Source of the DNA: Mycoplasma sp. CAG:776
Lineage (GTDB): Bacteria; Bacillota_I; Bacilli_A; RF39; UBA660
Direction of reading: 5' to 3'
NCBI GenBank assembly: GCA_000438195.1
Contig: FR903071.1
Coordinates: 87,394-151,393 of the forward strand
DNA: 64,000 nt
The position numbers and the translations under genes were made by a program. This document shows, piece by piece, positions 7,891 through 42,878 of this stretch. Below the pieces are notes generated by a model. The model searched no databases, was not told the DNA's origin, and saw only the letters and a program-made list of their open reading frames with translations. Numbering within the stretch: the first letter of the stretch is position 1; every line of letters starts with the position of its first letter.

Positions 7891-7899
7891 GCCACTTTT

Positions 7900-9424: not shown

Positions 9425-9853
9425 TTACAAGCGAACAAGCTCATTTAACCAGAAATAATCTTTATTTTTAAAGTCACAAACAAATAAATTTTGTAAACCA
9501 TTTAGTTCGGTTAAAAAACTTGGTTTTAGAATGTTGCTTTCTAAAAGAAGAAATGCTTTATTAACGATCAAACTGGAATCTTCAGGAATATATTTATTTT
9601 GGATACGATGAACGTTGTGAAATTTAGAATAGAAGTCATTTCCTTTACATTCATTGAAAATCAAATTATTAATACGACTTTTATCAAATGGAGATACTAT
9701 TTGCATAAATAAATCATAAGCTATGCTTACATCATTTGTATCAAAATTATGAATTTCTTCCATCGTTTTAAATAAATGATAGGGATTATTTTTCATTAGA
9801 TTATAAAAATTTTTATTAATATTAAATATATAGAATGTACGCATTTTTCTCAC
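9425..9853 (-). CDS. SirA-like protein (sporulation inhibitor of replication, YneE family), tentative
   Basis: 142 aa, adjacent to yneF as in Bacillus. C-terminal ...DYFWLNELVRL resembles the SirA C-terminus (..RYGWLNPV..). Weak similarity only. Confidence 0.4.
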   Translation of the reverse strand: MRKMRTFYIFNINKNFYNLMKNNPYHLFKTMEEIHNFDTNDVSIAYDLFMQIVSPFDKSRINNLIFNECKGNDFYSKFHNVHRIQNKYIPEDSSLIVNKAFLLLESNILKPSFLTELNGLQNLFVCDFKNKDYFWLNELVRL

Positions 9854-12578: not shown

Positions 12579-13931
12579 CTATATTCTTTTTGATTCTTCA
12601 ATATAAAGATCTTTATTTAAATATCTTTGGACAGCTAAATTAAATAAATTTAAAGATAGTGGAACATTATTTTGAATTAGAAAGTTTAAAACTCGTTCTT
12701 TTTCTTCTTCTGTTAATTCAATACCTGTATTAGAAATTGGCATTCTATTCTTATCTAATTTACAATAAAATTCCAAATTATTTTTAAGCAATACTTCGGG
12801 ATTTACCTGAATTATTCTATTAGTTACGAAAAACCTTTCTATAAGAAGTTTCGCTTCTTCTGGAATTTTGTTTAACTGTTCTCTTATTTTTAATTGGGGA
12901 ATTTTTATTTCTAAATAGTAATCTAATAAATCAAATGGGCGATTTTGATAACCATATTTTAAATATTCTATTAGTTTAATTATACTATCATCTATATTTA
13001 TTATTCCAAAATATAATTGACTTAATTTAGGATCATATCTTCTAACTATTTGTAAAATTTCATTTATATTATTTGGCAGTTCTACTTGCCTTTCATCATA
13101 AATAATTCTTGTTAAAACCCTTTTAGCTTCTTTAATTTCTTCTAATAAGTATCTTTCTTTAGTATTATCTAACTTCTTTTCTTCTCTTATCAAATCTATT
13201 ACTTCTTGATATCTTGTTAAAATTCGTTCTTCCGTTTTTTTCATATCAACATCTTTTTCTAGCTGATATAAGTTTAAAAAACTTTCTACAAATTTTGGAT
13301 AAAATTGGCGTAAAGTTAGTTTGTTCTTATGGATATAATTTAAAATTTCTTCGATAGGTATATCCGCTAATAACATATTACATAACTTATAAAATTTTGA
13401 CTTTTTTATGTTTTTTGGCTTATTTTGAGGTGCACTTAAAGTTTTTTTACCTGCTAAGGTTCTATTTAGCTTCTCTTTCATTTTGTTTGTTAATTTTTTC
13501 TCGCAAAAAAATTGATAAAACTTTTTTACTTCTATTATTGATAAATTAAATCTTTTAGTAATTATGTCTATTGCTTGGGTATTTTTTAGTAACTCTAAAT
13601 ATACACTTTTACCAATAAATAATACTATCTTTTCAAATGTTTGTTGTTCTATTCGATTAGCCTTTTCTTTATAATACCATTCTGCTAAAGGATAATCTTC
13701 CGGTCTTTTTAAAGAAAAATTTAAAAAATCTGCAAATATTTCACGAGCTTTTATTTGTTTTAACAGTTCTTCAAATTTAGTTTCTTCTTCTTTTAACTCT
13801 TCTAATATATATTTTTTTATTAAATCTAACAATTCGGAATAAGAAAGATTATAATCTTCGGCGATCATTTCTAAACATGGTCTATACCACCTTGTATTCT
13901 CACATTTTTGATATATTTCTTTTGCTTGCAT
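12579..13931 (-). CDS. Hypothetical cytoplasmic protein (450 aa, Lys/Glu-rich), no recognisable family
   Basis: Long ORF with coding-like composition. No motif recognised. Confidence 0.45.
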   Translation of the reverse strand: MQAKEIYQKCENTRWYRPCLEMIAEDYNLSYSELLDLIKKYILEELKEEETKFEELLKQIKAREIFADFLNFSLKRPEDYPLAEWYYKEKANRIEQQTFEKIVLFIGKSVYLELLKNTQAIDIITKRFNLSIIEVKKFYQFFCEKKLTNKMKEKLNRTLAGKKTLSAPQNKPKNIKKSKFYKLCNMLLADIPIEEILNYIHKNKLTLRQFYPKFVESFLNLYQLEKDVDMKKTEERILTRYQEVIDLIREEKKLDNTKERYLLEEIKEAKRVLTRIIYDERQVELPNNINEILQIVRRYDPKLSQLYFGIINIDDSIIKLIEYLKYGYQNRPFDLLDYYLEIKIPQLKIREQLNKIPEEAKLLIERFFVTNRIIQVNPEVLLKNNLEFYCKLDKNRMPISNTGIELTEEEKERVLNFLIQNNVPLSLNLFNLAVQRYLNKDLYIEESKRI

Positions 13932-20140: not shown

Positions 20141-20173
20141 ATATTCTCTTGATATTTAGCCCTTTTCTTAAAA

Positions 20174-21529
20174 TTAAATTTCATACGGTGTTGAAGATGT
20201 TCCATTTCCACTTTTTATGGTAGCATTACTTGCTATATTGATAACAGGACGAACGCCATGCGTGACATCCACGCTCCAGGAGTCGAGGATGCCACCCGAA
20301 TGCACACGGGACACTTGAGCAGTACTGTTCGTCGCATAAAAGTAAGACGGAGACATAGTCCAATAAGTTTGTCCTGTATGTAGGTAGTAACTTTTATTAC
20401 TTCTTCCGCTTACTCCTCCAGCCATTGCTACTTCGTCTGCTGTAATGAGTCCTACTGGGTTTGTTAATGCTTTATTTCCTCTACTACTTCCACTTACTGT
20501 GTACATATCTTCATTATTCTTACATTTTAAACTTGGGCTTTCATTTATATTTAATCGGATATATCCTCCATAATAAGTTTTAGTTGTTCCTGTCCCTCCT
20601 TGTCCATTACTGGTTGTTTTACTTGTACTTGGCTCTCTATCTCCGCAGAATCCTGCTTCTGTACTTACCTTATCTCCATATCCTTTATTGGCTATATTAG
20701 TTTGATACCAGCTATCCAATGTATTCTTTATTCCACTATTTGTTCCAAGGCCATGTACTTGTCCTATCGTATACATATATCCTACATAAGCATTATTGTT
20801 ATACGTGTTACTGTCTATGGAAAATGTATTTGTTCCTATTTGTGTACCTGCTCCTGTTGTCGCTGTACTTGTTCCATTATAGATTAGTCTTATACTTCCA
20901 TCTCCATTGATCCTTATGATCCTCCAATAATACCCTGCAAACTTGACCCAGTTATTGTCCACTGCCCCTCTAAAGTAATAACTATCTCCCCAATCGTCTT
21001 GGGTTTTATATACTCCTTCGTCTTTTGTTGCTAAACTTCCAAAGTTTGGTGTTCCACTATTGATTTGATTATCTCTTTTAATGGCATCTGCTAATAATAT
21101 AGGTTGTTCATCAAAATACAGATAACATTTACTATTCTTTTTTAAGTTTCCTATTACATGTTCTCCATTAGAATTAGTATATAATACAGAACTGGTATCT
21201 TCATTTACATTATCGATTGTACAATAACTTTCTTCTTCATTTATGACATACCCACTACTTGGCATTTCTTCTATTTCTTTATATGTTCCATTTTCTTCTT
21301 GATACATTGCTATTACTTTAAAATCATATGGCGTATAATTGATTGTTCCATTTATCAAAGGTATACTTTGTGTTGTTCGATATTTTGCCAAACTATTGTT
21401 AGTAATCAATACAAGAAGAAGTATTACTACACAGACAAAACCACATAAAAAATATATTCTTTTTTTATTTGTTTTTAATGTTTCTATTTTCATAAGCCGC
21501 CTGCTTTCTATAATGATGCTAGGCTTCAT
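20174..21529 (-). CDS. Signal-anchored secreted/surface protein, paralog B (likely true start at internal MKIETLK, ~21492)
   Basis: Same conserved N-terminus (KKRIYFLCGFVCVVILLLVLITNNSLAKYR), same C-terminus (GVRPVINIASNATIKSGNGTSSTPYEI) and same central motif as paralog A. Gly/Thr-rich variable core. Confidence 0.7.
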   Translation of the reverse strand: MKPSIIIESRRLMKIETLKTNKKRIYFLCGFVCVVILLLVLITNNSLAKYRTTQSIPLINGTINYTPYDFKVIAMYQEENGTYKEIEEMPSSGYVINEEESYCTIDNVNEDTSSVLYTNSNGEHVIGNLKKNSKCYLYFDEQPILLADAIKRDNQINSGTPNFGSLATKDEGVYKTQDDWGDSYYFRGAVDNNWVKFAGYYWRIIRINGDGSIRLIYNGTSTATTGAGTQIGTNTFSIDSNTYNNNAYVGYMYTIGQVHGLGTNSGIKNTLDSWYQTNIANKGYGDKVSTEAGFCGDREPSTSKTTSNGQGGTGTTKTYYGGYIRLNINESPSLKCKNNEDMYTVSGSSRGNKALTNPVGLITADEVAMAGGVSGRSNKSYYLHTGQTYWTMSPSYFYATNSTAQVSRVHSGGILDSWSVDVTHGVRPVINIASNATIKSGNGTSSTPYEI

Positions 21530-21639
21530 TTTTATAATTACAAAAATAAACTATCATATAATATCATGATCAGTTTCCTAGCTTATAGTTAAATTATAAA
21601 TATAGCTATGGAAAAAGTCAAGAAAAATGTCGGTATTTT

Positions 21640-22137
21640 ATGAATAAAATTATCTTTTTTAATTTTAATGAGAAAATTGACTTGGTGAAAATTATGATGA
21701 ATTATGGAACAATTTTAAGAGAACTTAGAGAAGAAAAAAACTTATCACAAGCAGATATAGCATTACAACTTAACATTCAAGGTAAGGTTTATAGTCAATA
21801 CGAAACAGAATATACAATTATTCCTATTAAACATTTAATCATTTTGTCTGATTATTTTAATGTTTCTTTAGATTTTATTCTAGGATTTACTAAAATTAAA
21901 CAATATTCTAAAACTTCAAATATTCTTAAATGTAGATTAAAAGAATTTCGTAAAGAACATAAATTAACTCAGGAAAAGCTTGCTCAATTTTTAAATACTA
22001 CTCATTCTGTTATTGCTGATTATGAGAGAAATAGATATTTAATTGCTACACCTTTTCTTTATCAAATATGTAGGAAATATAATATCTCTGCTGATTATCT
22101 TTTGGGTAAAATAGACAATCCTAAATACCTTAAATAA
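21640..22137 (+). CDS. Tandem-HTH XRE-family transcriptional regulator (paralog B)
   Basis: Two XRE HTH units ending ...SADYLLGKI. Divergent from paralog B surface gene. Confidence 0.75.
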   Translation: MNKIIFFNFNEKIDLVKIMMNYGTILRELREEKNLSQADIALQLNIQGKVYSQYETEYTIIPIKHLIILSDYFNVSLDFILGFTKIKQYSKTSNILKCRLKEFRKEHKLTQEKLAQFLNTTHSVIADYERNRYLIATPFLYQICRKYNISADYLLGKIDNPKYLK

Positions 22138-29904: not shown

Positions 29905-29991
29905 GCCTGTGTGGCGGAATTGGTAGACGCGCTGGACTCAAAATCCAGTGGTAGCAATATCGTGTCGGTTCGAGTCCGACCACAGGCACCA
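29905..29991 (+). tRNA. tRNA-Leu (anticodon CAA), with encoded CCA
   Basis: 7-bp acceptor stem GCCTGTG/CACAGGC, anticodon loop CTCAAAA, long variable arm, T-loop GGTTCGAGTCC. 87 nt. Confidence 0.9.
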
Positions 29992-30063
29992 GAGGGAAAT
30001 CTGCTCGAACCGAAAAGGAAGAGCTTTCGATAAATGTCAATTCTATAGGGAATTGATTTTTTT

Positions 30064-30360
30064 GTGTTAGAAAGTGAGAAGATTTTCATGTTAAAGGTTG
30101 TAAAACAAGAAATTGAAATGGAAGCAGCTCTTAAAAAGAAGTTAGAATTTATATGTAGTTTCTGTAATATTACTCCCATTATCCAAAATGGAAGTATTAG
30201 AAAGTTAGAACAAACTAACTTAATTTATGTAGAACCTCATAGAATTATCATCAAAAATATTACTTTACTTGCCTTTAATTATGAGAGTAATCTTTATATT
30301 GAAAATTTAAGTAAAAGTATTCCATTAAAAGAATTAGAAAATTTTATTAAAACACTATAA
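30064..30360 (+). CDS. Hypothetical small protein (98 aa) at island edge
   Basis: ORF only. Confidence 0.3.
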   Translation: MLESEKIFMLKVVKQEIEMEAALKKKLEFICSFCNITPIIQNGSIRKLEQTNLIYVEPHRIIIKNITLLAFNYESNLYIENLSKSIPLKELENFIKTL

Positions 30361-30584
30361 AAAAACATGCACATCAATTCCTTATCTCCCATTTTACCTG
30401 GATTTTTTCTAAAAATTAGGAAAGAAAAATTATCATAACTTTACCCATAGACAAAACTAGATGTTTTGTTAAAATAAGTATGCTAGGAAAAAATATAATG
30501 ATTTCCACTTATTTAGATAACACAAACTATTTGTCTTGTGTTATTTTTTTATACTTTAAATGGATAGAAAGGATGATGTGATGA

Positions 30585-32488
<1,904 letters not shown>

Positions 32489-32726
32489 CTCTCCTAAATT
32501 TTTCTTTTTTTCTCATTTTTACAACTTTAAAAATTAAACAGGATATGATGTTTGCACCAGTTAAAAGAACCAACCCTTATTTTATAAGACTTTTTCTTTT
32601 ATTTTACTGGTGCCATTTTATTTTTGCACTTGCAAAAATAGATATAATTATATACAAAGTATATTACCTTTTTTAAAAAAAGCTAGGTAAATACTGATTT
32701 AATTTGTATTACTTTTTTATATAATT

Positions 32727-33173
32727 TTATTTTTTACTTTTCCCACAAACAGCACTCATTGAAATATGAAACTCTTTACAAAATTTATATAGATTGGAAG
32801 TAGAAATACATATAAGACCTTTTTCGTATCTAACAATACATGCTTGTGATACACCTAACAAGTCAGCAATATTTTCTTGAGACAAATTATGTTTTAGTCT
32901 AACTGCTTTCATATTATTACCTAATCTTTCTAGGTTCAATCCTTTATTTATTTTTGTGTTACGTTCATTTGTTAAACCAAGAACATAATCTATACTATAT
33001 TTAAAATAATCTGCATAATCACATAAGTTTTTAAGTGGAATAATGTTAATTCCTAATTCCCATAATGAATATGTAGAACGATTTACTTTTAGAATATTTG
33101 CCATTTTCTCTTGGCTAATGTCATTATCTTCTCTAATATCTTTTAATCTTGAAAAATCTATCATATACTTCAC
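32727..33173 (-). CDS. Tandem-HTH XRE-family regulator (island-encoded)
   Basis: Two XRE HTH units (ISQEKMANILKVNRSTYSLWE; LSQENIADLLGVSQACIVRYE). Confidence 0.7.
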   Translation of the reverse strand: MKYMIDFSRLKDIREDNDISQEKMANILKVNRSTYSLWELGINIIPLKNLCDYADYFKYSIDYVLGLTNERNTKINKGLNLERLGNNMKAVRLKHNLSQENIADLLGVSQACIVRYEKGLICISTSNLYKFCKEFHISMSAVCGKSKK

Positions 33174-33275
33174 CTAGGCTAATTATCGCATTAGGCGAAG
33201 AAAAAACATCAATATTGCTATTTACAGTTATATTTTCTGCTATTTTGTGTTATAATTAATAATTAGAAAGAAGGC

Positions 33276-33635
33276 GTGGAAATGACAAAATATTTATCAT
33301 TAAAAGAAAATGAAGAATTAATTATAGGAATGGATCAAAAGCCAAAAGTAGTTAGAATCAAAAATAAAAATAATAAATTACAAATAAGTGAGATTACTCC
33401 TGAAGAAATAACAGACAATATTGTAATTACAGAATTAAATTTTGATGAATTAAAAAGTTTTGTGTTGTACGAAAGTTATTATCAAGAAGTATCTAACCTT
33501 GATATAGATAAGGAAATAATGCAAAAAAATAATGATATATGTGAATATCATTATAAAAAAATTTATGGTGATAATTATAACGAAGATATATCAAATACTA
33601 AGTTTCAAGTTATTATTACTTTTGGCAAGAAATAG
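33276..33635 (+). CDS. Hypothetical protein (119 aa)
   Basis: ORF divergent from the XRE gene. Confidence 0.35.
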   Translation: MEMTKYLSLKENEELIIGMDQKPKVVRIKNKNNKLQISEITPEEITDNIVITELNFDELKSFVLYESYYQEVSNLDIDKEIMQKNNDICEYHYKKIYGDNYNEDISNTKFQVIITFGKK

Positions 33636-33729
33636 AATTTGAAAAAAGTTAACTCTAATCTTAAAAACAGGAAAATAATTTATAATCTACTTAATAAATT
33701 GCTTATTAAATCTTTATTAATTTGTGTCG

Positions 33730-34332
33730 TTAACTTTTTTGCGTTTCTTTTTTTCCGCAACAATACCGATATGGTCTACCGCTTCCACACGGACATTTCT
33801 TTTTGCCATTTTTCTTTTCTTCATATAAATGTAATTGGTGATTTTTTTTAGCAATTTGCCTATTATAATTGTCAATATCTTCTACAAAATCATATTTTTT
33901 ACATGATGGAATTCTAAAGGTAAAGGTTGTTTTACCATCTGTATTTGAAATTGCAAAATCGCCTAATTGAATAACGTCCATTCCAATAAGAGCATCAGCA
34001 CCATGTATTTCTGGTATTTCTGTAACTTTCACAGAGTTAATAACTACACCATTGGGGACAAGTATATCTACCAAATATACATTTTGGGATACTAAACCAC
34101 CAGCAGTGTGAACTTCAGCTTTTGAAATTGGAATTAAATTGCATTTTTTTGCTATATTTGAACTTATTGCGCTTGTTGTCGCTCCAGTATCCCAAATTCC
34201 TATTCCTGTTACTTCTATAGCATTTGCATTCTTAAAAGAAGAAGAAAATGAAACTTTTGTTAAAAGTACTGGAGTAATTTTTTCATAAGGAACTGTAAAA
34301 GCATGCCTAATTTCTTTTTTCGATTTATCCAT
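33730..34332 (-). CDS. Retropepsin-like aspartic protease domain protein with C-terminal SEC-C zinc-binding motif
   Basis: D-T-G-A active-site motif (GIWDTGATTSAIS) and C-terminal CPCGSGRPYRYCCG. Confidence 0.6.
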   Translation of the reverse strand: MDKSKKEIRHAFTVPYEKITPVLLTKVSFSSSFKNANAIEVTGIGIWDTGATTSAISSNIAKKCNLIPISKAEVHTAGGLVSQNVYLVDILVPNGVVINSVKVTEIPEIHGADALIGMDVIQLGDFAISNTDGKTTFTFRIPSCKKYDFVEDIDNYNRQIAKKNHQLHLYEEKKNGKKKCPCGSGRPYRYCCGKKETQKS

Positions 34333-34569
34333 TTAAAAAATTGCCCTCGTGTGAAAAACCTGAATACTATTTTGATCTTCTTTTTCACATTTCTGTATAA
34401 TAAACGTTCCCATTTCTAATTCAGAGGCATAAGTAATTGCCTTTTGTTCTTCTTTGCTGGCAAATATTACCTCTTGATTAGCTATTACTATATATTGTCC
34501 TTTATATTTTTTTAACAATTCCTTTAAATTGGCTTTAAACCATTTATAGTTTCTATCAACTTCATTCAT
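34333..34569 (-). CDS. Small hypothetical protein (78 aa) translationally coupled to the retropepsin-like gene
   Basis: Stop/start adjacent (34332/34333). Confidence 0.4.
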   Translation of the reverse strand: MNEVDRNYKWFKANLKELLKKYKGQYIVIANQEVIFASKEEQKAITYASELEMGTFIIQKCEKEDQNSIQVFHTRAIF

Positions 34570-34722
34570 AGCAAAAACTCCTTTCTTTTAAGTTAGAAAT
34601 ATATTATACTCTATGATCATTAGTTTTACAATATTAATATATCATATTTTTTTTTTTTTTTAAAGCCAAATGTTTAAACTTTAAAAAATTTTATTATTTT
34701 TTACACTACATCATAATTTTGT

Positions 34723-34800
34723 GTTAAAATATTATTAGATTTGAGATTTATCGACCTATTTTAATCTTAAAGGTTCTAAATAGGCTACTCTCTCGCACCA
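34723..34800 (+). repeat. 78-bp direct repeat, copy 1 (upstream of fic)
   Basis: Near-identical to 36047..36124 (2 mismatches). Ends in ...tctcgcacca. Confidence 0.6.
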
Positions 34801-34953
34801 AATTGAATTTTACTCAAAATTTTGAGTTATTATTGCACAATAATTGTGCAAAAAGCATATTTTTTTTATAAAAATGCACATTATTTCATAGATATTGTGC
34901 GTTTTTCTTTACTTTCTAGACTGAATATAGTAATATATTAAGGAGGTGAGAAA

Positions 34954-36033
34954 ATGGATCCTATAAAAGTTAAAAAATTACCACTTGAATATAAACTAGA
35001 TAAAGAGTTAATGAATTTGATTTCAGAAGCTAATTTAAAATTTGGAGAATACAAATCAAATTTAAAAAACAGTCAATTTGATTCAAGATTTTTTTTAGAC
35101 TCTATTATTTTAAGTGAAAGTTTAAAATCAACACAAATAGAGGGTACTCAAATTTCACAAGATGATATGTATTATTTAAAATATATGCCTAAAACAGATG
35201 ATAATTTAGAAATACAAAACTTAAAAAAGGTAATTGATTTTGCCAAAATGCATTTAAAAGATAATCATAAAATTGATATTAAATTCATTAATGATATTCA
35301 TAAGATATTATTAAATAGTGTTCGTGGAAATGAAAAAGATCCCGGGCATATTAGAACTACTCAAAATTGGATTGGCCCAAAAGGCTGTACGATTGAAGAA
35401 GCAACATTTATTCCGCCTATACCAGAAGAAGTTCCAATTTTGTTAAACAATTTATTTGAATATATGAATGATGCTTATGTTGATCCTATATTTATCAATT
35501 TGGCAATATCTCATTCACAATTTGAAACTATACATGCTTACTGTGATGGTAATGGTAGACTTGGTAGAGCACTCATTCCTGTTCAATTAGCTCTTTTAAC
35601 CGAAGAAGAACCAATTTTATTTTTATCAGAAGTAATTGAATTATATAAGCCTACTTATTATAAACTTTTAAACGAAAGTAGAAAAGGCAATATGTTGGGA
35701 TTTATAAAGTTTTTTTTGCAATGTATAATTGATCAATGCAATAATTATATTGCAAAAATAAATAGAATTAACCAAATTTATAATAAAGATATGGAAAAAA
35801 TTAAAATATTAAAAAGTAATGCTGTATATCGGATTATGCCTGCCATTATGAGACAAATTGTTTTTACAAAAAAAGAAATCGTAGAAGAGTCATCAGTTTC
35901 TAGAAATACTGTGTCTATATTAATAGACAAATTAGTAGAATTAAATATTTTAGAACCAGATTCTAATTATGCTAAGTTAGGTTATAGATACAATGAAATT
36001 TATAATGTCTTTGTGGGGAAAGATATGTCATAA
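34954..36033 (+). CDS. fic: Fic/Doc family protein (class II, with N-terminal inhibitory SxxxEG motif); AMPylase-type
   Basis: Fic motif HAYCDGNGRLGR. N-terminal STQIEG matches the (S/T)xxxE(G/N) inhibitory helix. 359 aa. Confidence 0.85.
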   Translation: MDPIKVKKLPLEYKLDKELMNLISEANLKFGEYKSNLKNSQFDSRFFLDSIILSESLKSTQIEGTQISQDDMYYLKYMPKTDDNLEIQNLKKVIDFAKMHLKDNHKIDIKFINDIHKILLNSVRGNEKDPGHIRTTQNWIGPKGCTIEEATFIPPIPEEVPILLNNLFEYMNDAYVDPIFINLAISHSQFETIHAYCDGNGRLGRALIPVQLALLTEEEPILFLSEVIELYKPTYYKLLNESRKGNMLGFIKFFLQCIIDQCNNYIAKINRINQIYNKDMEKIKILKSNAVYRIMPAIMRQIVFTKKEIVEESSVSRNTVSILIDKLVELNILEPDSNYAKLGYRYNEIYNVFVGKDMS

Positions 36034-36046
36034 AAATTTAAAGTAT

Positions 36047-36124
36047 GTTAAAATATTATTAGATTTGAGATTTATCGACCTATTTTAATCTTAAAGGTTT
36101 TAAATAGGCTACTTTCTCGCACCA
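36047..36124 (+). repeat. 78-bp direct repeat, copy 2 (downstream of fic), running straight into the 25-bp island-boundary repeat
   Basis: See copy 1. Confidence 0.6.
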
Positions 36125-36309
36125 GAGGGAAATAGCCTCGAACTATTCGAATTTTAATATATAGAAATCAATCGAAATGATTGATTTTTATCGTTATTAT
36201 CTAATGTTTTTCTTGATTATTTAAATAAATTAAGTTACAGTATACATTTTTATTTATTAATGAAAAAGACCAATTGTAGCAGTTGGTCTAATCGATAAAA
36301 TATAGTTTG

Positions 36310-36825
36310 TTATTTATTTCTTTTTACAAATATTATTCCTAATATTATAGTTATTGTTATAACTATAATTGGGGCAAATCTAAAGAATATCCATTCAAAT
36401 GAATGCCATATCGTTCCAATAACAGTCCATTCAGCATCATTGTAATCCCATGATTGATATGGACTATTTAATATTATGAATAAAATAAATAATAATATTA
36501 AAAATACATCAGCAATTATTAATGTATTAATCATTAGTTTTCTCTTTTGTTTTCGTTTCATTGATAATTGTTCATTTATAACTTCTAATTTTTCGGATAT
36601 TACTTGTAAGTCATTTTTTTCTTTTTCCTTGATGTTCTCACCTAGAATTTCACTAACCGGTGTTTCAAAAATTGTTGATATAGTTATTAACATTTCCGCA
36701 TCTGGAACAGATAAGCCTGACTCCCATTTTGAAATTGTTTGTCTAACAACATTTAATTTAATACTTAACTCTTCTTGGGAAAGTCCTTTTTGTTTTCTTA
36801 ATGCTTTTAAATTATCTTTTAACAT
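36310..36825 (-). CDS. XRE-family HTH protein with C-terminal transmembrane segments
   Basis: N-terminal HTH (LSQEELSIKLNVVRQTISKWESG), then 2 TMs. Terminator hairpin 36267..36289. Confidence 0.6.
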   Translation of the reverse strand: MLKDNLKALRKQKGLSQEELSIKLNVVRQTISKWESGLSVPDAEMLITISTIFETPVSEILGENIKEKEKNDLQVISEKLEVINEQLSMKRKQKRKLMINTLIIADVFLILLFILFIILNSPYQSWDYNDAEWTVIGTIWHSFEWIFFRFAPIIVITITIILGIIFVKRNK

Positions 36826-36912
36826 ATAACATTTTCTCCTTTCAAGTTAAGTTTATTATAAATATATCGTTGCTACAAGCAATGTATTTTAACATTGCAA
36901 TCAATTGTAAAT

Positions 36913-37158
36913 TTAATGAATAGTATGTGAAGTTATAATTGTGTAGCTATATGCGTTAATAGTTATCCTTATATTATTAATTTCACAATACCAATTCTTT
37001 CCTTGTTTATAAATATTACAGTTTTTATCTAAGATTTTATTTTTACAGTATTCAATTATATCATTAGTATTTAATTTAAGATTTTTCTTAATCCTATCCA
37101 TACCCATTTTGGTAGTATGAATTTTATCTATATTAGATAATAATATTTCTTTATTCAT
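36913..37158 (-). CDS. Small protein, DUF3781-like
   Basis: 81 aa, KNWYCE motif. Confidence 0.35.
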   Translation of the reverse strand: MNKEILLSNIDKIHTTKMGMDRIKKNLKLNTNDIIEYCKNKILDKNCNIYKQGKNWYCEINNIRITINAYSYTIITSHTIH

Positions 37159-37187
37159 AATTTTTACATCTTCCTTATATATTGAAC

Positions 37188-37634
37188 TTATTTTTCTAAT
37201 TTCATATATAAAACTGGGTAGGGTTTACCTTGATCATCTAACTCGTTTCTTTGATAAACTTTAAAACCTATGTGTTCATAAAAGCACTTTGCTTGTGGAT
37301 TATCTTCATTTACTGCAAGATCATTAATTCCATAATTTTCTATTCCGTATAAAAGCATTTTTTTGCCAATACCCTTGCCTCTACATTCAGAAATAATAAA
37401 TAGCATTTCAAGTTTATTATTTTCAATTCCCATAAATGCAATAGGTGTTCCCTCTTTATCAGTTTCAATAATTAAATGGGAGATATTGTTTAATGCTTCT
37501 GGTACATATTTTTTAATTTCTAAAATTTCTTCATTTGATAGAAATTTATGTGTTGCTCTTACAGAATTTTCCCACACCGTTAATAATTTATCTATAAGTT
37601 GTGGTGTTCTATCTTTGGCCTCAATTATTTTCAT
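37188..37634 (-). CDS. GNAT family N-acetyltransferase
   Basis: Acetyl-CoA binding motif ECRGKGIGKKML, C-terminal YEHIGFKV. Confidence 0.8.
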   Translation of the reverse strand: MKIIEAKDRTPQLIDKLLTVWENSVRATHKFLSNEEILEIKKYVPEALNNISHLIIETDKEGTPIAFMGIENNKLEMLFIISECRGKGIGKKMLLYGIENYGINDLAVNEDNPQAKCFYEHIGFKVYQRNELDDQGKPYPVLYMKLEK

Positions 37635-37660
37635 ATTTTACCTCACTTTCAAAGGGTAAT

Positions 37661-38170
37661 TTATTTATTAGTCCTTTTCCATTTTTTTATTTTACCTCTA
37701 AAATTTTTGAAATTAGCAATAGTATTTAGATGTATTAATCTACATACACTAAACTCCTTACCGTTTGTTTTTGCCCAATTTCTTTTTCCGATTTCCAATA
37801 ATTCTGTATCAGATAAATTAGTTACTAGTTGGATAATATTATCAACTTTTTGATTAAAAGTATCAATTAATTCTTTTAAAGAATAATCATTATGTTTATC
37901 ATAAAAACTTTGATATAACCAATCTAAATTATTCCATTTCCATTCAGTAGCAAGTGGTGTTTTCTGAATGGCTTTTTGTTCTTCATTTTCCCAAGCTAAA
38001 ACTAAATCCATCCAACCAATACAAAAGGATAACATTTGAAAAGGAGTATATTCAATTTTCCCGTCAACTACATTTATAGATGATTCATTTATATTCGAAT
38101 ATTCTTTAATAAACAAATCAGCATTATTTCTAATTGCTTCTATCAATTCTAATTTATTACTGTATTTCAT
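37661..38170 (-). CDS. ClbS/DfsB-family four-helix-bundle protein (DUF1706-like), tentative
   Basis: Overall similarity in length and pattern (LIEAIRNNADLFIKEY..., W-rich). Weak. Confidence 0.4.
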   Translation of the reverse strand: MKYSNKLELIEAIRNNADLFIKEYSNINESSINVVDGKIEYTPFQMLSFCIGWMDLVLAWENEEQKAIQKTPLATEWKWNNLDWLYQSFYDKHNDYSLKELIDTFNQKVDNIIQLVTNLSDTELLEIGKRNWAKTNGKEFSVCRLIHLNTIANFKNFRGKIKKWKRTNK

Positions 38171-38197
38171 AGTCCCTCCATAAATCGTAATTTTGAT

Positions 38198-38806
38198 TTA
38201 TAATTTCTTCCTATATAATAAACATTTTAAAGGAACCTCTTTTTCTAGTTTAAGGATAATATCTTCTTCTCCAACTTTATCAAATCCTCTGTTTTCATAG
38301 AATTGATAAGTACATTGATCATCAGTAAATAAGTAAATTTCTTTTCCTTTTTCTCTTTTTTCTAATTCATTTAACAACTTTGTTCCTATACCTTTTACTT
38401 TTAAATCAGGATTAGCTGCTAAAAATCTGATTTCTCCATTTGGTTTATTATTTTTTTGATATTCTTTTAGTAATTTTTGATTAACTTCATCATAAATACC
38501 AACACTATCTTTGAAGAAATATTTTTGAATAAACTCAACAAACTTAACATATATAGACTTTGAAAATGATTTATGACATTTAGGTTCATCATATATCTCT
38601 GCTATTAGAACTCCTGCTAGTTCTTCACCATAATATAATGCTAAAACTTGTGTTGCATTTAATAGTTCCAAATACCAAAAGTATCTACCATAAAAATTTA
38701 ATATTGTTTTATTATCAACATAAAAATTAAAGTGCATTCCTTTAATTGCATATTGAATTACTTTCTTGTAATCTTTTTCTGCCAATTCTTTAAATTCCAA
38801 TTCCAA
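38198..38806 (-). CDS. GNAT family N-acetyltransferase
   Basis: KVKGIGTKLLNELE...FYENRGF. Confidence 0.75.
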   Translation of the reverse strand: MELEFKELAEKDYKKVIQYAIKGMHFNFYVDNKTILNFYGRYFWYLELLNATQVLALYYGEELAGVLIAEIYDEPKCHKSFSKSIYVKFVEFIQKYFFKDSVGIYDEVNQKLLKEYQKNNKPNGEIRFLAANPDLKVKGIGTKLLNELEKREKGKEIYLFTDDQCTYQFYENRGFDKVGEEDIILKLEKEVPLKCLLYRKKL

Positions 38807-39762
38807 AGTATCATCTCGCTTTCAAATTACTATTTGTCGTTTAGATAATTATATCATTTTTTTCATATAAAAACTATTTTCAAATAACAATAAAAGTACT
38901 ATAAGTATGTAATATTAATTGTCTTTGTTAAATGGTTTTGGTAAGTTCCTAAACAGCACTATCGGTCAATTTATTTTAACTTTTTTAGATTAAAATATAT
39001 AGTATCGATTTTAAAAAAAGTTGATTTTTGATATTTAAGGAAAGAAAAGGATAGCTTAAGGTGTTTCAATTAAAAGCAAAAGATTTACTTTTTTATAAAG
39101 TACTAAAAAAAAGATAGAGTTTATATATGACAATAATATTGAAATTATACAGAATACCAAAGATGGTTTTGAAAGATATTAAAAATATGATTTATGTTGC
39201 AATTGAATGTGTCTAAAGAAAATTATTAGATTGAATTATTATAATAATTGTTAAAAGTCAATAGTTTTCTAAAAAATTTAATATGGAAAAGAAGCATATA
39301 ATAATAAAATTTCATACAAGTGAAACTTTAGAAAAATCATTGTCCTGGTTCTTATATTTATCTAAAAAGCAAATAAGAAAGTAGTCGAAATTCTATTGTT
39401 AAATAAAGGTTTTAACTCTGGAAAAGATTTATTTAACTCGCCGTTTAATAAAAATTCAAATTTACTTCGATTTTTAATTAATGGTTGACGTACATAATGA
39501 CTTTAAAATATAAATATGGTATAATAAATAATAATTTGGAATGTATTGAATGGATAAGAGATAACTAGCAATAGTAAAAACTAACGTGTTTTTATTAAAT
39601 CTATGTTCTTAAGTTCTTTGAACCAGTTTATAAAATGGTTTTGGTAAAATAGATACGAATCTACAATACTTCTAAGAATTATAATACATCAAAAAATATA
39701 AATAGAAAGGGAAAAATCAAATATATTAATATTTATATAAGATTGATTATACGAGAATTTAA

Positions 39763-40494
39763 ATGAAAAATGTAATTATTTATGATTTCGATGGAACATT
39801 AACTCCATACTCTTTACCTAAATTTGAAATTTTAGAAAAAAGTGGAATGAAAGGTGGAGCACATAATCCAAAATTTTTAGAATTATCAAAGCAAAAATCA
39901 AAAGATAAAAATATAGATTTATATGAAGCTATGTATGAAACTTATTTTGAAATTATAAAAAGTGCAAATTTTGATTTAAAAGATGAAAATTTTTGTTTAG
40001 GTTATAATAATGTTGATTATAATGAAGGAGTAACTGACTTTTTAGATATGCTTTGTCAAAATCATGTTTCAAATTATTTGTTAAGTTCTGGAATTAAGGT
40101 GTTTTTAGAAAAAGTCTCTGTTTCATCCTATTTTAAAAAGATTTATGCAACGATATTTAATTATAATTTAAACCATGAAGCCATAGGAATAAAATTTTTA
40201 ATGAGTGATAAAAATAAAGTCGTTGCTATAGAAGAAATATTAAAAACAATTGGAAATAAAGATAATGATTGTTCTAATGTAATATATATAGGGGATGGAC
40301 TTACAGATTATTATGCAATGAAATACATTAAAGAACATGGTGGAACAACAATCTTTGTATACCAAGATCCCAATCATAAAGATATTTTAGCTATAAAAGA
40401 AAAAAAGGTTGTTGACTTTTATACAAATGCTATTTATTCACAAAATGGTGAGTTATATCATTATGTGAGAAAATTATGTAAAATTAATAACTAA
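39763..40494 (+). CDS. HAD-superfamily hydrolase
   Basis: N-terminal DFDGTLT motif and C-terminal GDGLTD. Confidence 0.7.
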   Translation: MKNVIIYDFDGTLTPYSLPKFEILEKSGMKGGAHNPKFLELSKQKSKDKNIDLYEAMYETYFEIIKSANFDLKDENFCLGYNNVDYNEGVTDFLDMLCQNHVSNYLLSSGIKVFLEKVSVSSYFKKIYATIFNYNLNHEAIGIKFLMSDKNKVVAIEEILKTIGNKDNDCSNVIYIGDGLTDYYAMKYIKEHGGTTIFVYQDPNHKDILAIKEKKVVDFYTNAIYSQNGELYHYVRKLCKINN

Positions 40495-40531
40495 ATATTT
40501 ATATATTAAATAGTTAAGTTACTCTTTATAT

Positions 40532-41221
40532 TTATTTTTTATTACAAGTAAGATTATAGCTTTCCTTTATATAAGCTATTATTTCTTCATCTTCTATTGT
40601 ATTATCTAAGATTATTGTAATCCATTTTTTCTTATTCATATGATAAGCTTTATAAAATCCTTTTTTATTTAGTAATTGGCTTATTTTTTCTTCATTTAAT
40701 TTTAAATTAATCACTTCTACTTTTTCAATATTATCATTGTTTTCTATTTTTCCTCTTTTTACATTCATAATTAATGCATACCACTTCTTATTATTAGCGT
40801 GTCTAAATATACCACAATCTGGATTTTTCTTCCAAGGAAATTCTGGAGTTGTATGATAATAATTTATTATAAAATCAGCTACTCTATTTGTTTGTTCTGA
40901 TCCAAAATACAAGATGGTACAACATTTATCTTTAATATCAAATAAAACTTTTTTAAATTCTTCACGAACTTTATTGATGAACTCTCCATTTAAGTTTTCA
41001 TTACGATAATTTAAATATTCTTCATCAAAATTAGCATCTATTATTTTCCCTTTTATATTATTATAATAATCGATTTCTATTATGATTTTAAATGTATTAT
41101 TTAAAATTTTTTTTGAATAAATATAACTATTATTAATTTCTTTAAAACCATAAGACATCAATTTATCTATCTTTATTTGGGCTTTCTTAAATATTTTTTC
41201 CTCTAAATTCATTTTTATCAC
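40532..41221 (-). CDS. MmcQ/YjbR-family protein with N-terminal extension
   Basis: C-terminal YHMNKKKWITIILD and surrounding pattern typical of YjbR (DUF419). Confidence 0.6.
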   Translation of the reverse strand: MIKMNLEEKIFKKAQIKIDKLMSYGFKEINNSYIYSKKILNNTFKIIIEIDYYNNIKGKIIDANFDEEYLNYRNENLNGEFINKVREEFKKVLFDIKDKCCTILYFGSEQTNRVADFIINYYHTTPEFPWKKNPDCGIFRHANNKKWYALIMNVKRGKIENNDNIEKVEVINLKLNEEKISQLLNKKGFYKAYHMNKKKWITIILDNTIEDEEIIAYIKESYNLTCNKK

Positions 41222-41231
41222 CTATTATTAA

Positions 41232-42599
41232 CTATTTATTTTTTGATTTTACTAAGATATAAGGTTTTTCTTCTTCTGTTTGCGGCTTTATTAGAATTAT
41301 TCTTGAATATTCTCCTGCAAAAATTCTAAATAAAGCACTACTAATACATTCATCAAAAACGGCTTTTAAACTTCTTGCTCCACTTTGTTTTAATATAGAT
41401 AATTCAGCAATATATTCTATAAATTCATTATTAAATCCAAAATCTACGTTTAACATTTCAAATAATTTTCTATATGTGTTTAATGGACTAAAATCTGATT
41501 CTTTTAATATTCTGATAATATCTTCTTTTTTTAAAGGATTCATTGCAATTATTTTAGAAAATCTACCCATTAATTCATTTAACATTCCATAATTAGTAAA
41601 ATGTTCTATTTTAAGATGTTTATAATCCTGTTCTTCTGTGATGCCAGTAAAAGCTCCTAATCCCACTATAGTTAATTTTGAAGTATTAAATGTACCACTC
41701 GGTAAGTAAAATATAGAACCATCTAATAACTTTAATAAAGATCTTTGTACCCCTAGCCTTGAAACATGAGATTCTTTACCGTTATTTTTTTCAGCTAGCT
41801 TATCAAATTCATCTATTACTAATATTCCTTTTTCTGCTTTTTCTATTCTTCCATTTGCTGCTAAACATAGTGCTTCTAACATATCCGTTACTTTTCTTCC
41901 TTGGTAGCCAGTTTCTGAAAGAGAGGTTGCATCTTCTATTATTATTGGAATATTATATAGTTTTGATATTCTTTTTAATATTTCTGTTTTCCCTGTTCCA
42001 GTTGGTCCGCATATTAGGATACTTTCTTTTAACTTAGCAATTATATCTATATCAAAATCTGAATTTATGACTTTCTGATTTTTAAATAGAGCTGTTAATA
42101 TTTGCATAATTTGTTCATCTTGAGAAATAATTGTTCTTTTTATTGCCATATACATTGAAAATATATCTGCATTTTTCTCTCTTTCTTCTAATGTAAAATC
42201 TAATTTATTCTGCTCTTCTTTCTCCAATAAAGCTAGTAATTCTTTATTTAGTAGCTTTGCTAATCCCGTTCCTTCTTTATCTCTTAAATAATATTTGGCT
42301 GTGCTTTCTAATCTTTTTCTTCGTATTATATCAAAGTTCACTTTATTATTATTAAGCTTTATCGCTTCTATTAAATCATCTTTTATAAAAACAAAATTAC
42401 TTTCATTTCTATTTTTATCTACGCTACTTGCATATATTCCACTATATATTCCAGTTATTACATGGTTCATATAATTTCCTTCGGAGTTCATAAATGATAT
42501 ACTAACACAATAATCTCTAAAATAAAATATTTCATGTTTTTGATTTTCATAATTTATATATTCTTTCTCAAATAAATAGCCTATTTTTAATTCTATCAT
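41232..42599 (-). CDS. ClpX/HslU-like AAA+ ATPase with novel N-terminal domain (no ClpX zinc-binding domain)
   Basis: Walker A ILICGPTGTGKT, Walker B GILVIDEFDKL, sensor-2 SGARSLKAV, GYQGRKVTD (ClpX GYVG-like region). ~190-aa unrelated N-terminus. Confidence 0.7.
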   Translation of the reverse strand: MIELKIGYLFEKEYINYENQKHEIFYFRDYCVSISFMNSEGNYMNHVITGIYSGIYASSVDKNRNESNFVFIKDDLIEAIKLNNNKVNFDIIRRKRLESTAKYYLRDKEGTGLAKLLNKELLALLEKEEQNKLDFTLEEREKNADIFSMYMAIKRTIISQDEQIMQILTALFKNQKVINSDFDIDIIAKLKESILICGPTGTGKTEILKRISKLYNIPIIIEDATSLSETGYQGRKVTDMLEALCLAANGRIEKAEKGILVIDEFDKLAEKNNGKESHVSRLGVQRSLLKLLDGSIFYLPSGTFNTSKLTIVGLGAFTGITEEQDYKHLKIEHFTNYGMLNELMGRFSKIIAMNPLKKEDIIRILKESDFSPLNTYRKLFEMLNVDFGFNNEFIEYIAELSILKQSGARSLKAVFDECISSALFRIFAGEYSRIILIKPQTEEEKPYILVKSKNK

Positions 42600-42878
42600 A
42601 TTTATTTCCCCTATCTGTTTTAATTATTATAACATATTTCTTTTATCTTATCAGAAAATGCCCATTCTTAATTTTATGTTTCATTTTTTGATTCATTTGT
42701 GTCTTATTTTAACTTAATTGCTGGAACATTTCAACCTTTTTTAAGCTTATCATAATCAACCATTAAATTAACATCAGCCTTTTTAAAGATCTTAATGATA
42801 ATCCAGTTTGGTACATCCAAATATTTTATGAATGAATGTTTCTTGTTAAAAAAAATTGCTATATTTCTATAACAATTT

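What the first reader, a model, noticed from the sequence alone, without database searches (positions are those of the whole stretch)
34723..36124. fic gene bracketed by 78-bp direct repeats: candidate mobile cassette
Two copies of gttaaaatattattagatttgagatttatcgacctattttaatcttaaaggttYtaaataggctactYtctcgcacca (34723..34800 and 36047..36124) flank fic precisely. Both end in gcacca, mimicking the tRNA 3' end. Copy 2 continues directly into the island-boundary repeat. This looks like a site-specific insertion or cassette exchange event that brought Fic into the island.
Basis: seen in the sequence. Interest (0 to 1): 0.6.

Follow-up and report, generated by a model that had tools for sequence, protein, structure and literature searches.

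The report
Tandem tRNA-Leu islands sharing one end
The two 78-bp repeats around fic are the matching right-hand ends of two mobile elements inserted one after the other at the 3' end of a tRNA-Leu gene: a 4.8-kb serine-recombinase island and a 1.3-kb fic-only unit, a known kind of mobile-DNA pile-up seen here in a new family from gut bacteria.

Summary
The repeat is real: 34722-34800 and 36046-36124 match at 77/79 positions, and these are the only two copies in the window. It is not a dispersed repeat.

Each copy ends in GCACCA, which is also the 3' end of tRNA-Leu(CAA) at 29905-29991.

Conspecific metagenome contigs, 99.4% identical in both flanks, have fic and copy 2 but lack 29992-34800 exactly. 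They read tRNA-Leu..GCACCA|aattgaat..fic. So copy 1 is the right end of a separate 4.8-kb element (E1). E1 carries a large serine recombinase that is broken here by a 4-bp deletion. E1 sits between the tRNA and an already resident fic unit.

The fic unit (34801-36124) behaves as a discrete mobile module. It is 99.4% identical in a second species whose left flank is only 82-86% identical, and 92.8% versus 79% in a third.

Relatives of E1 with other cargo all end in the same unit plus GCACCA. One array (L022) has two units around a recombinase-less methyltransferase cargo, where the window has fic.

Best reading: serial site-specific integration (tandem accretion) of an integrative island and a recombinase-less, CIME-like cassette. 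The closest precedents are the Dehalococcoides ssrA islands and SCCmec composites.

This is a new member of a known kind, of moderate interest.

The parts
29905..29991 (+). tRNA-Leu(CAA), the integration target. Its last 6 nt, GCACCA (29986-29991), are the crossover core.
   Evidence: ARAGORN; Rfam tRNA 62.4 bits; sequence.
29992..34800 (+). Element E1 (4809 bp), a serine-recombinase integrative island. It is absent, with exact boundaries, from conspecific contigs.
   Evidence: L001 and L003 are 99.4% identical in both flanks and join window 29991 to 34795 with a 6-nt GCACCA overlap. E1 is present in 15 of 23 and 18 of 23 contigs read.
29992..30063 (+). E1 left-end 'alpha' module: GAGGGAAATCTGCTCGAACC followed by an AT-rich hairpin (30037-30056) and a T-run. 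It acts as a replacement trailer/terminator for the tRNA. CTCGAAC mirrors the GTTCGAG of the tRNA T-arm.
   Evidence: Read. Conserved at the left end of all relatives. The terminator scan covered 34500-36400 only, so this hairpin was not scanned.
30064..30360 (+). Small conserved ORF (98 aa here, called as 90-91 aa in relatives) just upstream of the recombinase gene. No family hit. Possible directionality or regulatory factor (inference).
   Evidence: Present in every relative.
30585..32488 (+). Large serine recombinase gene, inactivated by a 4-bp deletion (ATAT missing after ~30713). This splits it into 66-aa and 569-aa ORFs and separates the catalytic Ser region from the rest.
   Evidence: Pfam Resolvase + Recombinase + Zn_ribbon_recom. 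Intact 631-635 aa relatives P0001, P0122, P0123. DNA alignment shows the 4-bp gap.
32727..34569 (.). E1 cargo: double-HTH Xre-type regulator (32727-33173, -), ORF119 (33276-33635, +), aspartyl protease with SEC-C motif (33730-34332, -), DUF5678 (34333-34569, -).
34722..34800 (+). Unit copy 1, the right-end arm of E1. It starts with TGTTAAAAT (an extended -10-like box). It contains the family-invariant pattern GTT..AAATA...T..T...TCGCACCA and ends in the core GCACCA (34795-34800).
   Evidence: Profile HMM hits at the right ends of relatives. Alignment A1.
34801..36124 (+). fic cassette (1324 bp), a recombinase-less unit with a single gene, bounded by GCACCA on both sides.
   Evidence: 99.4% identical (1326/1334) in L011, L012 and L013, whose left flank is 82-86% identical and whose right flank is unrelated. 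92.8% versus 79.3% in L043.
34801..34900 (+). fic cassette leader: AATTGAATTTT, the palindrome ACTCAAAATTTTGAGT (34812-34827), then two TGCACA..TGTGCA operator-like palindromes (34833-34851 and 34875-34900).
   Evidence: Read. The same palindromes lie upstream of fic homologs in L032 and L037.
34954..36033 (+). fic, 359 aa: Fic_N + Fic domains, active-site motif HAYCDGNGRLGR, N-terminal inhibitory motif STQIEG. SoFic-like architecture.
   Evidence: Pfam; NCBIfam SoFic model 85 bits, below its cut-off of 550; PDB SoFic 3eqx/3zcn E=3e-15; translation.
36046..36124 (+). Unit copy 2, the right-end arm of the fic cassette. It is present whether or not E1 is present.
36119..36189 (+). Core plus resident 'alpha'-type flank: GCACCAGAGGGAAATAGCCTCGAAC, then a hairpin (36166-36186) and a T-run. 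With the end of copy 2 it forms a near-palindrome, AGGCTACTTTCTC-GCACCA-GAGGGAAATAGCCT. It is either the native tRNA trailer or the left end of an older decayed element.
   Evidence: alpha HMM E=6.6e-12. Homologous flank in L022 and L043.

Best explanation
The 78-bp repeats are the conserved right-end attachment arms of two elements of one family, integrated in tandem at the 3' end of tRNA-Leu(CAA).

A canonical element reads [GCACCA] alpha left end with terminator, small ORF, large serine recombinase, variable cargo, 78-nt unit ending in GCACCA.

The recombinase exchanges strands inside GCACCA between the element's joined ends (unit-GCACCA-left end) and the tRNA end. The unit therefore always lands at the far side of the insert, and the tRNA is restored.

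The tRNA side is regenerated as a usable target, so a second element can enter there and push the first one outward. In this genome the older insert is a 1.3-kb recombinase-less unit carrying only fic (34801-36124). The newer one is the 4.8-kb element E1 (29992-34800), whose recombinase has since been killed by a 4-bp deletion.

The two inserts share the same type of right end, so fic ends up bracketed by 78-bp direct repeats.

Shown here:
- the junction sequences;
- the exact E1-less allele;
- the between-species mobility of the fic unit;
- the position of the unit at the right end of relatives with other cargo.

Inferred:
- that the serine recombinase is the enzyme responsible;
- that the crossover lies within GCACCA;
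- the order of events;
- that the fic unit is moved in trans or together with a neighbour (cis-mobilization).
For: 1. Three junctions share GCACCA: 29986, 34795 and 36119.

2. Exact empty site for E1. L001 and L003 read ..CACAGGCACCA|AATTGAATTTTA.. with 99.4% identical flanks and a 6-nt overlap. The E1-less allele keeps fic, so it cannot come from homologous recombination between the two 78-bp units. That event would delete fic instead.

3. E1 encodes a large serine recombinase. Intact 93%-identical relatives sit at tRNA-Leu with the same left junction: L015, L024, L027, and L019 at a second tRNA-Leu gene.

4. A profile of the unit finds it only at the right ends of these elements. They carry different cargo: unnamed 339- and 483-aa proteins (L019), Abi_alpha and SocA, a Mob_Pre relaxase (L016, L018), and others. 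The unit is always followed by GCACCA.

5. L022 carries two units (9737-9814 and 12965-13042) around a 3.2-kb recombinase-less cargo of two methyltransferases plus a DUF6996/6997 protein. This is the same architecture as fic in the window.

6. The fic unit is 99.4% identical in a second species, against 82-86% for the flank. In that species the tRNA T-stem carries two compensatory changes and the right flank is unrelated. In a third species the values are 92.8% against 79.3%.

7. In that third species a different LSR+Mob_Pre element is inserted at the same GCACCA between the tRNA and fic (L046).

8. Scans of 185,579 species genomes and of JGI metagenomes found the unit's core only downstream of fic at tRNA-Leu. 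It is not dispersed.

9. Site geometry fits serine-integrase sites. GTTCGAG (tRNA T-arm) and CTCGAAC lie symmetrically around GCACCA. All unit arms keep GTT at -22, against -18 in the tRNA arms.
Against: - No excised circle, recombination assay or transcript data exist. The enzyme-site assignment is by association only.
- The left end of the fic unit shares only GCACCA plus about 13 of 24 positions with the E1 left end. Its competence as a recombination site is unproven.
- No strain of the window species without fic was seen (0 of 23 contigs). The fic-less target site is therefore inferred, not observed.
- E1 has no relaxase or oriT that I could detect, and its recombinase is broken in every E1-bearing contig. 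Present-day mobility in this species is unlikely.
- The order of events (E1 arriving second, or E1 lost from a composite) cannot be resolved.
- The 50 nt of the unit beyond a normal approximately 25-bp half-site are conserved for reasons this model does not explain.
Confidence: 0.8

Rival explanations
1. One reading: the island came first with two 78-bp sites, and fic was inserted or swapped in between them as a cassette.
For: Fic is bracketed precisely. L022 shows other cargo between two units.
Against: Conspecific contigs and two other species have tRNA-Leu|fic|unit with no island. Solo relatives of E1 carry one unit only, at their right end (L019, L029, L030). No E1-with-one-unit-and-no-fic allele was seen among 23 contigs.
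Confidence: 0.07
2. The unit is, in addition to or instead of a recombination arm, a small transcribed RNA. This could be an outward promoter with a ~63-nt tRNA-gene-like transcript ending in CCA, or a promoter that reads across the junction into the next module or, in the circle, toward the recombinase operon.
For: Every unit type, including divergent ones (L016 9003-9064, L022 2007-2108, L025 ~930-999), starts with a TGnTAnAAT-like box 65-95 nt before GCACCA. The layout of promoter, ~60-80 nt, GCACCA, trailer and terminator mimics the tRNA-Leu gene. The hairpin CCTATTT/AAATAGG shows a few compensatory changes.
Against: No Rfam family at E<=1 and no ARAGORN call. Folding is no better than shuffles, z -0.8 to -1.25. 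The consensus structure is weak, -4.8 kcal/mol with a covariation term of -0.5. -10-like boxes are common in 26% GC DNA (24 found against 16 expected). The alpha module carries a terminator that would stop read-through.
Confidence: 0.15
3. The repeat is a dispersed intergenic repeat (REP or MITE-like), or a local duplication from slippage or unequal crossing-over, unrelated to mobile-element ends.
For: It is AT-rich, intergenic, and contains a hairpin.
Against: There are only two copies in 64 kb. Only one species genome out of 185,579 has the 22-mer, once, in the same place. There are no terminal inverted repeats or target duplications. It is always at the ends of recombinase-associated elements. 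The population indel is bounded by GCACCA, not by the 78-bp repeat.
Confidence: 0.02

Closest known systems
Dehalococcoides ssrA genomic islands (McMurdie et al. 2011, PMC3146451)
   Same: Serine recombinase (CcrB-like) integration module next to attL. The target is the 3' end of a small structured RNA gene. Multiple islands sit in tandem, separated by short repeats of the gene's 3' end. An extra conserved motif lies just upstream of each repeat. Many islands have no integration module and were proposed to be cis-mobilizable through accretion.
   Different: The target here is tRNA-Leu, not tmRNA, and the shared core is 6-15 bp rather than 20 bp. There is a single recombinase gene with no DsiA partner and no ParB, RecF or Mom genes. 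The conserved arm is 78 nt and starts with a promoter-like box. The hosts are low-GC uncultured gut Bacilli ('Mycoplasma sp. CAG:776').
ICE/IME-CIME tandem accretion (ICESt1/ICESt3-CIME of Streptococcus thermophilus; review PMC5704250)
   Same: [quoted passage not shown] Composite excision patterns are possible.
   Different: The classic cases use tyrosine integrases with long identical att cores. According to that review, serine-recombinase IMEs usually insert inside genes and disrupt them. Here a serine recombinase uses a tRNA 3' end without disrupting it, and E1 itself has no relaxase.
SCCmec / pseudo-SCC composite islands at rlmH (own knowledge; NCBIfam CcrB model)
   Same: Large serine recombinases are involved, insertion is at the 3' end of a conserved gene, and tandem arrays include recombinase-less pseudo-elements bounded by short repeats.
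   Different: The recombinase scores only 137 bits against the CcrB model's cut-off of 900. The target gene, host and cargo differ.
Integron gene cassettes (attC)
   Same: Single-gene, recombinase-less modules each end in a conserved recombination site, are arrayed next to a recombinase gene, and are exchangeable between hosts.
   Different: There is no IntI tyrosine recombinase, and the unit is not an attC-type folded palindrome. Cassettes carry their own regulatory regions. Arrays seen have at most 3 modules, and multi-gene cargo regions are not subdivided by units (L028-L030).

Membership tests
Site-specific integrative island at a tRNA gene | Bounded by the target gene's 3' end on one side and a direct repeat of that end on the other | tested here: met
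   GCACCA at 29986 and 34795 bounds E1. GCACCAGAGGGAAAT..CTCGAAC at 29986 and 36119 bounds the whole array.
Site-specific integrative island at a tRNA gene | Presence/absence polymorphism with a precise empty site | tested here: met
   L001, L003, L006 and L008 lack 29992-34800 exactly, with flanks 99.4% identical.
Site-specific integrative island at a tRNA gene | Encodes its own site-specific recombinase | tested here: met
   Resolvase + Recombinase + Zn_ribbon_recom domains. Here it is a pseudogene through a 4-bp deletion, while relatives are intact.
Site-specific integrative island at a tRNA gene | Excision to a circular intermediate | not testable with these tools
   No read-level data. 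The 1330-nt contig L042 is a repeat-bounded assembly fragment, not a circle.
Integrative and mobilizable element (IME, strict sense) | Carries a relaxase and/or oriT for conjugative mobilization | tested here: not met
   No relaxase domain in any E1 ORF. Relatives L016 and L018 do carry Mob_Pre.
Cis-mobilizable element (CIME) | Lacks recombination and transfer genes | tested here: met
   34801-36124 encodes only Fic.
Cis-mobilizable element (CIME) | Retains functional att sites at both ends | tested here: inconclusive
   The right end has an intact unit plus GCACCA. The left end has GCACCA plus a leader only about 13/24 similar to the alpha end. Between-species transfer bounded by the two cores argues for function.
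Large serine recombinase | N-terminal catalytic domain with Ser nucleophile, recombinase domain, zinc ribbon | tested here: met
   Pfam hits. YTRVSTEDQ motif in the 66-aa ORF. Intact P0001 gives 137 bits to CcrB/XisF models, below their equivalog cut-offs.
Large serine recombinase att sites | Imperfect dyad symmetry around a short central crossover; attP half-site motif displaced about 5 bp outward relative to attB | tested here: inconclusive
   GTTCGAG-N11-GCACCA-N12-CTCGAAC symmetry at the tRNA plus alpha. GTT lies at -22 in all unit arms against -18 in tRNA arms, a 4-nt offset. Read, with no biochemical test.
Integron | IntI tyrosine recombinase, attI, attC-ended promoterless cassettes | tested here: not met
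   The recombinase is of serine type. The unit shows only a weak consensus fold (-4.8 kcal/mol), and no attC-type R''-L''/L'-R' motifs were looked for. fic has its own upstream palindromes.
Dispersed repeat (REP/MITE) | Many scattered copies, terminal inverted repeats, target-site duplication | tested here: not met
   Two copies in the window, and one locus per genome elsewhere.
Known RNA family / tRNA-like gene | Match to a covariance model, or a stable conserved fold | tested here: not met
   No Rfam hit with E<=1 and none near its gathering score. ARAGORN negative. Fold z -0.8 to -1.25. Weak consensus fold.
Class II Fic AMP-transferase (SoFic-like) | HxFx(D/E)GNGRxxR active site and N-terminal (S/T)xxxE(G/N) inhibitory helix | tested here: met
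   HAYCDGNGRLGR (Y in place of F) and STQIEG in the translation. Fic_N + Fic domains. SoFic is among the top PDB matches. The NCBIfam equivalog cut-off is not reached, 85 against 550 bits.

The most novel reading that the evidence does not exclude
The family may be a serine-recombinase cassette platform at tRNA-Leu genes of uncultured gut Bacilli.

On this reading, short recombinase-less modules are captured, stacked and exchanged between species in trans by the family's recombinases. Examples are fic here and a methyltransferase trio in L022.

Each module would be tagged by the 78-nt unit, and the unit would also supply an outward promoter or a small CCA-ended transcript.

That would make it a functional analogue of integrons, built on a different enzyme and a different kind of site.
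Probability: 0.2. Interest if true: 0.65.

Novelty: new member of a known kind. Interest (0 to 1): 0.4.

Why it matters
It explains a puzzling repeat as the signature of serial integration. It also defines a previously undescribed family of tRNA-Leu-specific serine-recombinase islands in uncultured human and mouse gut bacteria.

The family's ends (alpha left end, 78-nt unit, GCACCA core) are now known exactly, so members can be delimited automatically.

Members carry Fic, Abi, toxin-antitoxin-like and DNA-methyltransferase cargo. The family also shows very recent gene flow between species that share only about 80-85% nucleotide identity.

Serine recombinases that use a tRNA 3' end without disrupting it, with natural att sites this well defined, may also interest people who mine such enzymes as genome-engineering tools.

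Tried and rejected
- **RNA gene or riboswitch.** Rfam at gathering and at E<=10, ARAGORN, single-sequence folds and an alignment fold gave nothing convincing.
- **Dispersed repeat.** Whole-collection scans gave one locus type only. The single viral-contig hit (L014) is a chance 21-mer inside a coding region with no further similarity.
- **Further hidden units or alpha/beta modules to the right of fic.** Profile searches of the window found none beyond the known ones. I could not show that 36125-42870 is an older array, although that interval is variable between species.
- **Integron-like subdivision of multi-gene cargo.** L028-L030 share one recombinase with different cargo, but each has a single terminal unit and none between genes.
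- **Circular fic cassette from ~1.3-kb contigs.** L042 (1330 nt) simply runs from inside unit copy 1 to inside copy 2, as expected from a repeat-induced assembly break.
- **Native fic-less target site in the window species.** Not found among the contigs that carry the exact PAP2 protein.
- **Programmed frameshift in the recombinase gene.** Rejected, because relatives have 4 extra bases and one continuous frame.
Full report
**1. The observation**

The repeat is present as described. The repeat finder reports 34722-34823 against 36046-36147. Direct reading shows 79 matching columns, 34722-34800 and 36046-36124, with two differences: C34776/T36100 and C34790/T36114. After that the two sequences are only loosely similar.

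A 28-nt core of the repeat occurs exactly twice in the 64-kb window, against zero expected. fic (34954-36033; Fic_N + Fic domains) lies between the copies. Copy 1 ends 153 nt before the fic start, and copy 2 begins 13 nt after the fic stop.

Both copies end in GCACCA. Copy 2 continues into GAGGGAAATAGCCTCGAAC. tRNA-Leu(CAA) at 29905-29991 ends in GCACCA and continues into GAGGGAAATCTGCTCGAAC.

**2. What lies between the tRNA and copy 1**

The interval 29992-34800 contains the following:
- a short leader with an AT-rich hairpin and a T-run;
- a 98-aa ORF with no family match;
- a large serine recombinase gene split into 66-aa and 569-aa ORFs;
- a double-HTH regulator;
- a 119-aa ORF;
- an aspartyl protease with a SEC-C motif;
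- a DUF5678 gene.

The recombinase split is caused by a 4-bp deletion. Intact relatives of 631-635 aa, up to 93% identical, read GYEIYDYYEDAG across that point. One source names the 569-aa product 'lin1231 protein [Mycoplasma sp. CAG:776]'. This places the window in an uncultured low-GC gut lineage; the window is 26.5% GC.

**3. The decisive comparison**

I looked up the exact Fic protein and the exact upstream PAP2 protein in public assemblies. This returned two arrangements of the same species.

One arrangement equals the window. The other (L001, L003, L006, L008) has PAP2, tRNA-Leu, then fic directly. Its sequence is ..CCACAGGCACCA|AATTGAATTTTA.., followed by fic, unit copy 2 and GCACCAGAGGGAAATAGCCTCGAAC.

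megablast shows both flanks at 99.4% identity. The two alignments overlap by exactly the six bases GCACCA.

So 29992-34800 (4809 bp, called E1 here) is a discrete insertion or deletion bounded by GCACCA, and copy 1 is E1's own right end. Among contigs read, E1 was present in 15 of 23 (Fic look-up) and 18 of 23 (PAP2 look-up).

The E1-less allele keeps fic. It therefore cannot arise by homologous recombination between the two 78-bp repeats, which would remove fic and keep E1. It needs an exchange at the 6-bp cores, which is the mark of a site-specific enzyme.

**4. The unit is an element end, not a dispersed repeat**

- A 22-mer from the unit matched one locus among one genome for each of 185,579 species. 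That locus is L011, 'uncultured Tenericutes bacterium UMGS1172'.
- A 21-mer matched two JGI metagenome contigs with the same arrangement, L012 and L013.
- The single viral-contig match (L014) is a chance 21-mer inside a coding region.

I then built a profile of the unit and searched contigs that encode relatives of the recombinase. In every case the unit lies at the end of the element opposite the recombinase gene and is followed by GCACCA:

| Locus | Position of the element | Cargo |
|---|---|---|
| L019, L020 | At a second tRNA-Leu gene, one interrupted by a group I intron | 339-aa and 483-aa proteins |
| L024, L022 | See the L022 row below | Abi_alpha, SocA_Panacea |
| L016, L018 (mouse gut) | Unit 72% identical to the window's | Mob_Pre relaxase, radical-SAM protein |
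| L029, L030 | At a further tRNA-Leu gene | Same recombinase, different cargo, variant units |
| L022 | Two units, at 9737-9814 and 12965-13042 | Units enclose a 3.2-kb recombinase-less segment: N6_N4 methyltransferase, a DUF6996/6997 protein, a D12 methyltransferase |

The left junction of all these elements is X|GCACCA|GAGGGAAATCTGCTCGAACC plus a terminator-like hairpin. X is a tRNA-Leu 3' end, or the right end of yet another element (L022, L023, L025, L016). Tandem arrays are therefore common in this family.

**5. The fic segment moves between species**

| Comparison with the window | Flank identity | fic unit identity | Notes |
|---|---|---|---|
| L011, L012, L013 | 85.5-86.4% over 3.7-7.5 kb of left flank; 82% over the last 590 nt | 1326/1334 = 99.4% for window 34801-36133 | The tRNA differs by two compensatory T-stem pairs. 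Homology stops after GCACCAGAGGGAAAT, where an unrelated 95-nt 'beta' leader begins. The same beta leader opens the methyltransferase cassette of L022. |
| L043-L048 (GCA_964317575.1) | 79.3% | 92.8% | |

The high-identity block begins at the tRNA 3' end and ends in or near the second core. This is what transfer by recombination at the two cores predicts.

In L046, which belongs to that third species, a different LSR+Mob_Pre element is inserted at the same GCACCA between the tRNA and fic. Its right end is unrelated to the unit. This repeats the window's history with another incomer. It also shows that the 78-bp bracket arises only when the neighbours share the same type of end.

More distant fic homologs (93% and 83% protein identity) also sit just after tRNA genes in otherwise unrelated contexts, without an intact unit. 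That fits older, decayed insertions.

**6. Mechanism proposed**

A canonical element reads alpha left end, small ORF, large serine recombinase, cargo, unit. In the circle, the unit, GCACCA and alpha are contiguous and form the element's attachment site.

The conserved part of the unit nearest the core is GTT..AAATA...T..T...TCGCACCA, which is invariant across units only 72% identical overall. This is the likely recombinase half-site.

Around GCACCA, the tRNA T-arm motif GTTCGAG and the downstream CTCGAAC form a dyad, N11 and N12 from the core. In unit arms the GTT motif lies 4 nt further out than in tRNA arms (read). This resembles the known attP/attB half-site offset of serine integrases (own knowledge), but it is not tested here.

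The alpha end mimics the tRNA trailer, including CTCGAAC at attB-like spacing and a terminator. Integration therefore recreates a tRNA-plus-trailer site that looks like a fresh target, which would explain the tendency to stack. These mechanistic steps are inference.

In this genome the recombinase is dead, so E1 and fic are probably immobile now unless another family member acts in trans.

**7. What the unit's other 50 nt do is open**

Every unit type starts with a TGnTAnAAT-like box 65-95 nt before GCACCA. The layout imitates the tRNA gene: promoter, body, GCACCA, trailer, terminator.

Against a structured RNA:
- there is no Rfam or ARAGORN match;
- folding is not better than shuffles;
- the consensus structure is weak;
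- -10-like boxes are frequent in such AT-rich DNA.

I keep an outward promoter or small transcript as a secondary hypothesis at about 0.15.

**8. Comparison with what is known**

The architecture matches tandem accretion of site-specific elements and cis-mobilizable elements, as reviewed for ICEs and IMEs (PMC5704250).

The closest precedent is the Dehalococcoides ssrA islands (PMC3146451). Those have a CcrB-like serine recombinase, the 3' end of a small RNA gene as target, and tandem islands separated by short repeats. They also have a further conserved motif upstream of each repeat, and many islands without an integration module.

Differences here:
- the target is tRNA-Leu;
- the exact shared core is very short;
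- there is a single recombinase gene;
- the conserved arm is 78 nt long;
- the hosts are different.

It is not an integron. The enzyme is of serine type, the unit shows only a weak fold and was not tested for attC motifs, and multi-gene cargo is not subdivided by units.

It is not SCCmec. The recombinase scores 137 bits against the CcrB model's cut-off of 900, and the target differs.

E1 itself is not an IME in the strict sense, because no relaxase was found.

Fic has the class II features. HAYCDGNGRLGR and STQIEG are both present, and SoFic is among the top PDB matches, though below the NCBIfam equivalog cut-off.

**9. Verdict**

It is wrong about direction, because the island was placed next to fic rather than fic being placed into the island.

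This is a new family within a known kind of system, of moderate interest. The more novel possibility is a serine-recombinase cassette platform with promoter-bearing cassette ends. The evidence does not exclude it, and it is supported only by two cargo-only modules and the conserved box.

Noticed in passing
L019:343-675: A tRNA-Leu gene interrupted in the anticodon loop by a group I intron (Rfam RF00028, 54.8 bits), found in a gut metagenome contig. ARAGORN does not call the gene. A relative of E1 is integrated at its 3' end.
   Followed up: partly
window 30705-30720: A 4-bp deletion (ATAT) relative to intact relatives splits the serine recombinase gene into 66-aa and 569-aa ORFs. The same split is seen in every E1-bearing contig retrieved, so the insertion is probably old and clonally inherited in this species.
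   Followed up: yes
window 20169-22083 (and 6487-8674): This stretch is missing from the conspecific contigs L001 and L003. It coincides with the second, diverged copy (73-92% identity) of a ~2-kb segment also present at 6487-8674, which points to another strain-variable insertion or duplication.
   Followed up: no
window 41251-42521: The 455-aa MCM/AAA-type ATPase gene is absent from conspecific contigs L003 and L005 but present in L001, L002 and L004, a further presence/absence polymorphism in the same variable interval.
   Followed up: no
window 34833-34851 and 34875-34900: Two TGCACA..TGTGCA palindromes lie upstream of fic. They are conserved upstream of fic homologs in unrelated contexts (L032, L037). 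In L037 the whole block is repeated downstream of fic. They are probably operators for autoregulation through Fic's C-terminal DNA-binding region.
   Followed up: partly
window 29992-42870: The whole interval between tRNA-Leu and the FtsX/MacB transporter gene differs in gene content between related species (L043 against the window). It contains small cargo-type genes (HTH, DUF3781, GNATs, DUF1706) that also occur as cargo in relatives of E1 (L029). It may be an old, decayed island array.
   Followed up: partly
L028, L029, L030: 13500-17900: Three contigs encode the identical recombinase (P0012) and the same first two cargo genes at the same tRNA-Leu. Beyond that they have entirely different downstream cargo and different unit variants at the right end. 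L016 carries several of the L029 cargo genes in a different order.
   Followed up: partly
window 61590-61766 (-): T-box leader (Rfam RF00230, 96.6 bits), unrelated to the finding.
   Followed up: no
window 34645-34660: A run of 16 T in the intergenic region between the DUF5678 promoter region and unit copy 1. Homopolymer length could vary between strains.
   Followed up: no
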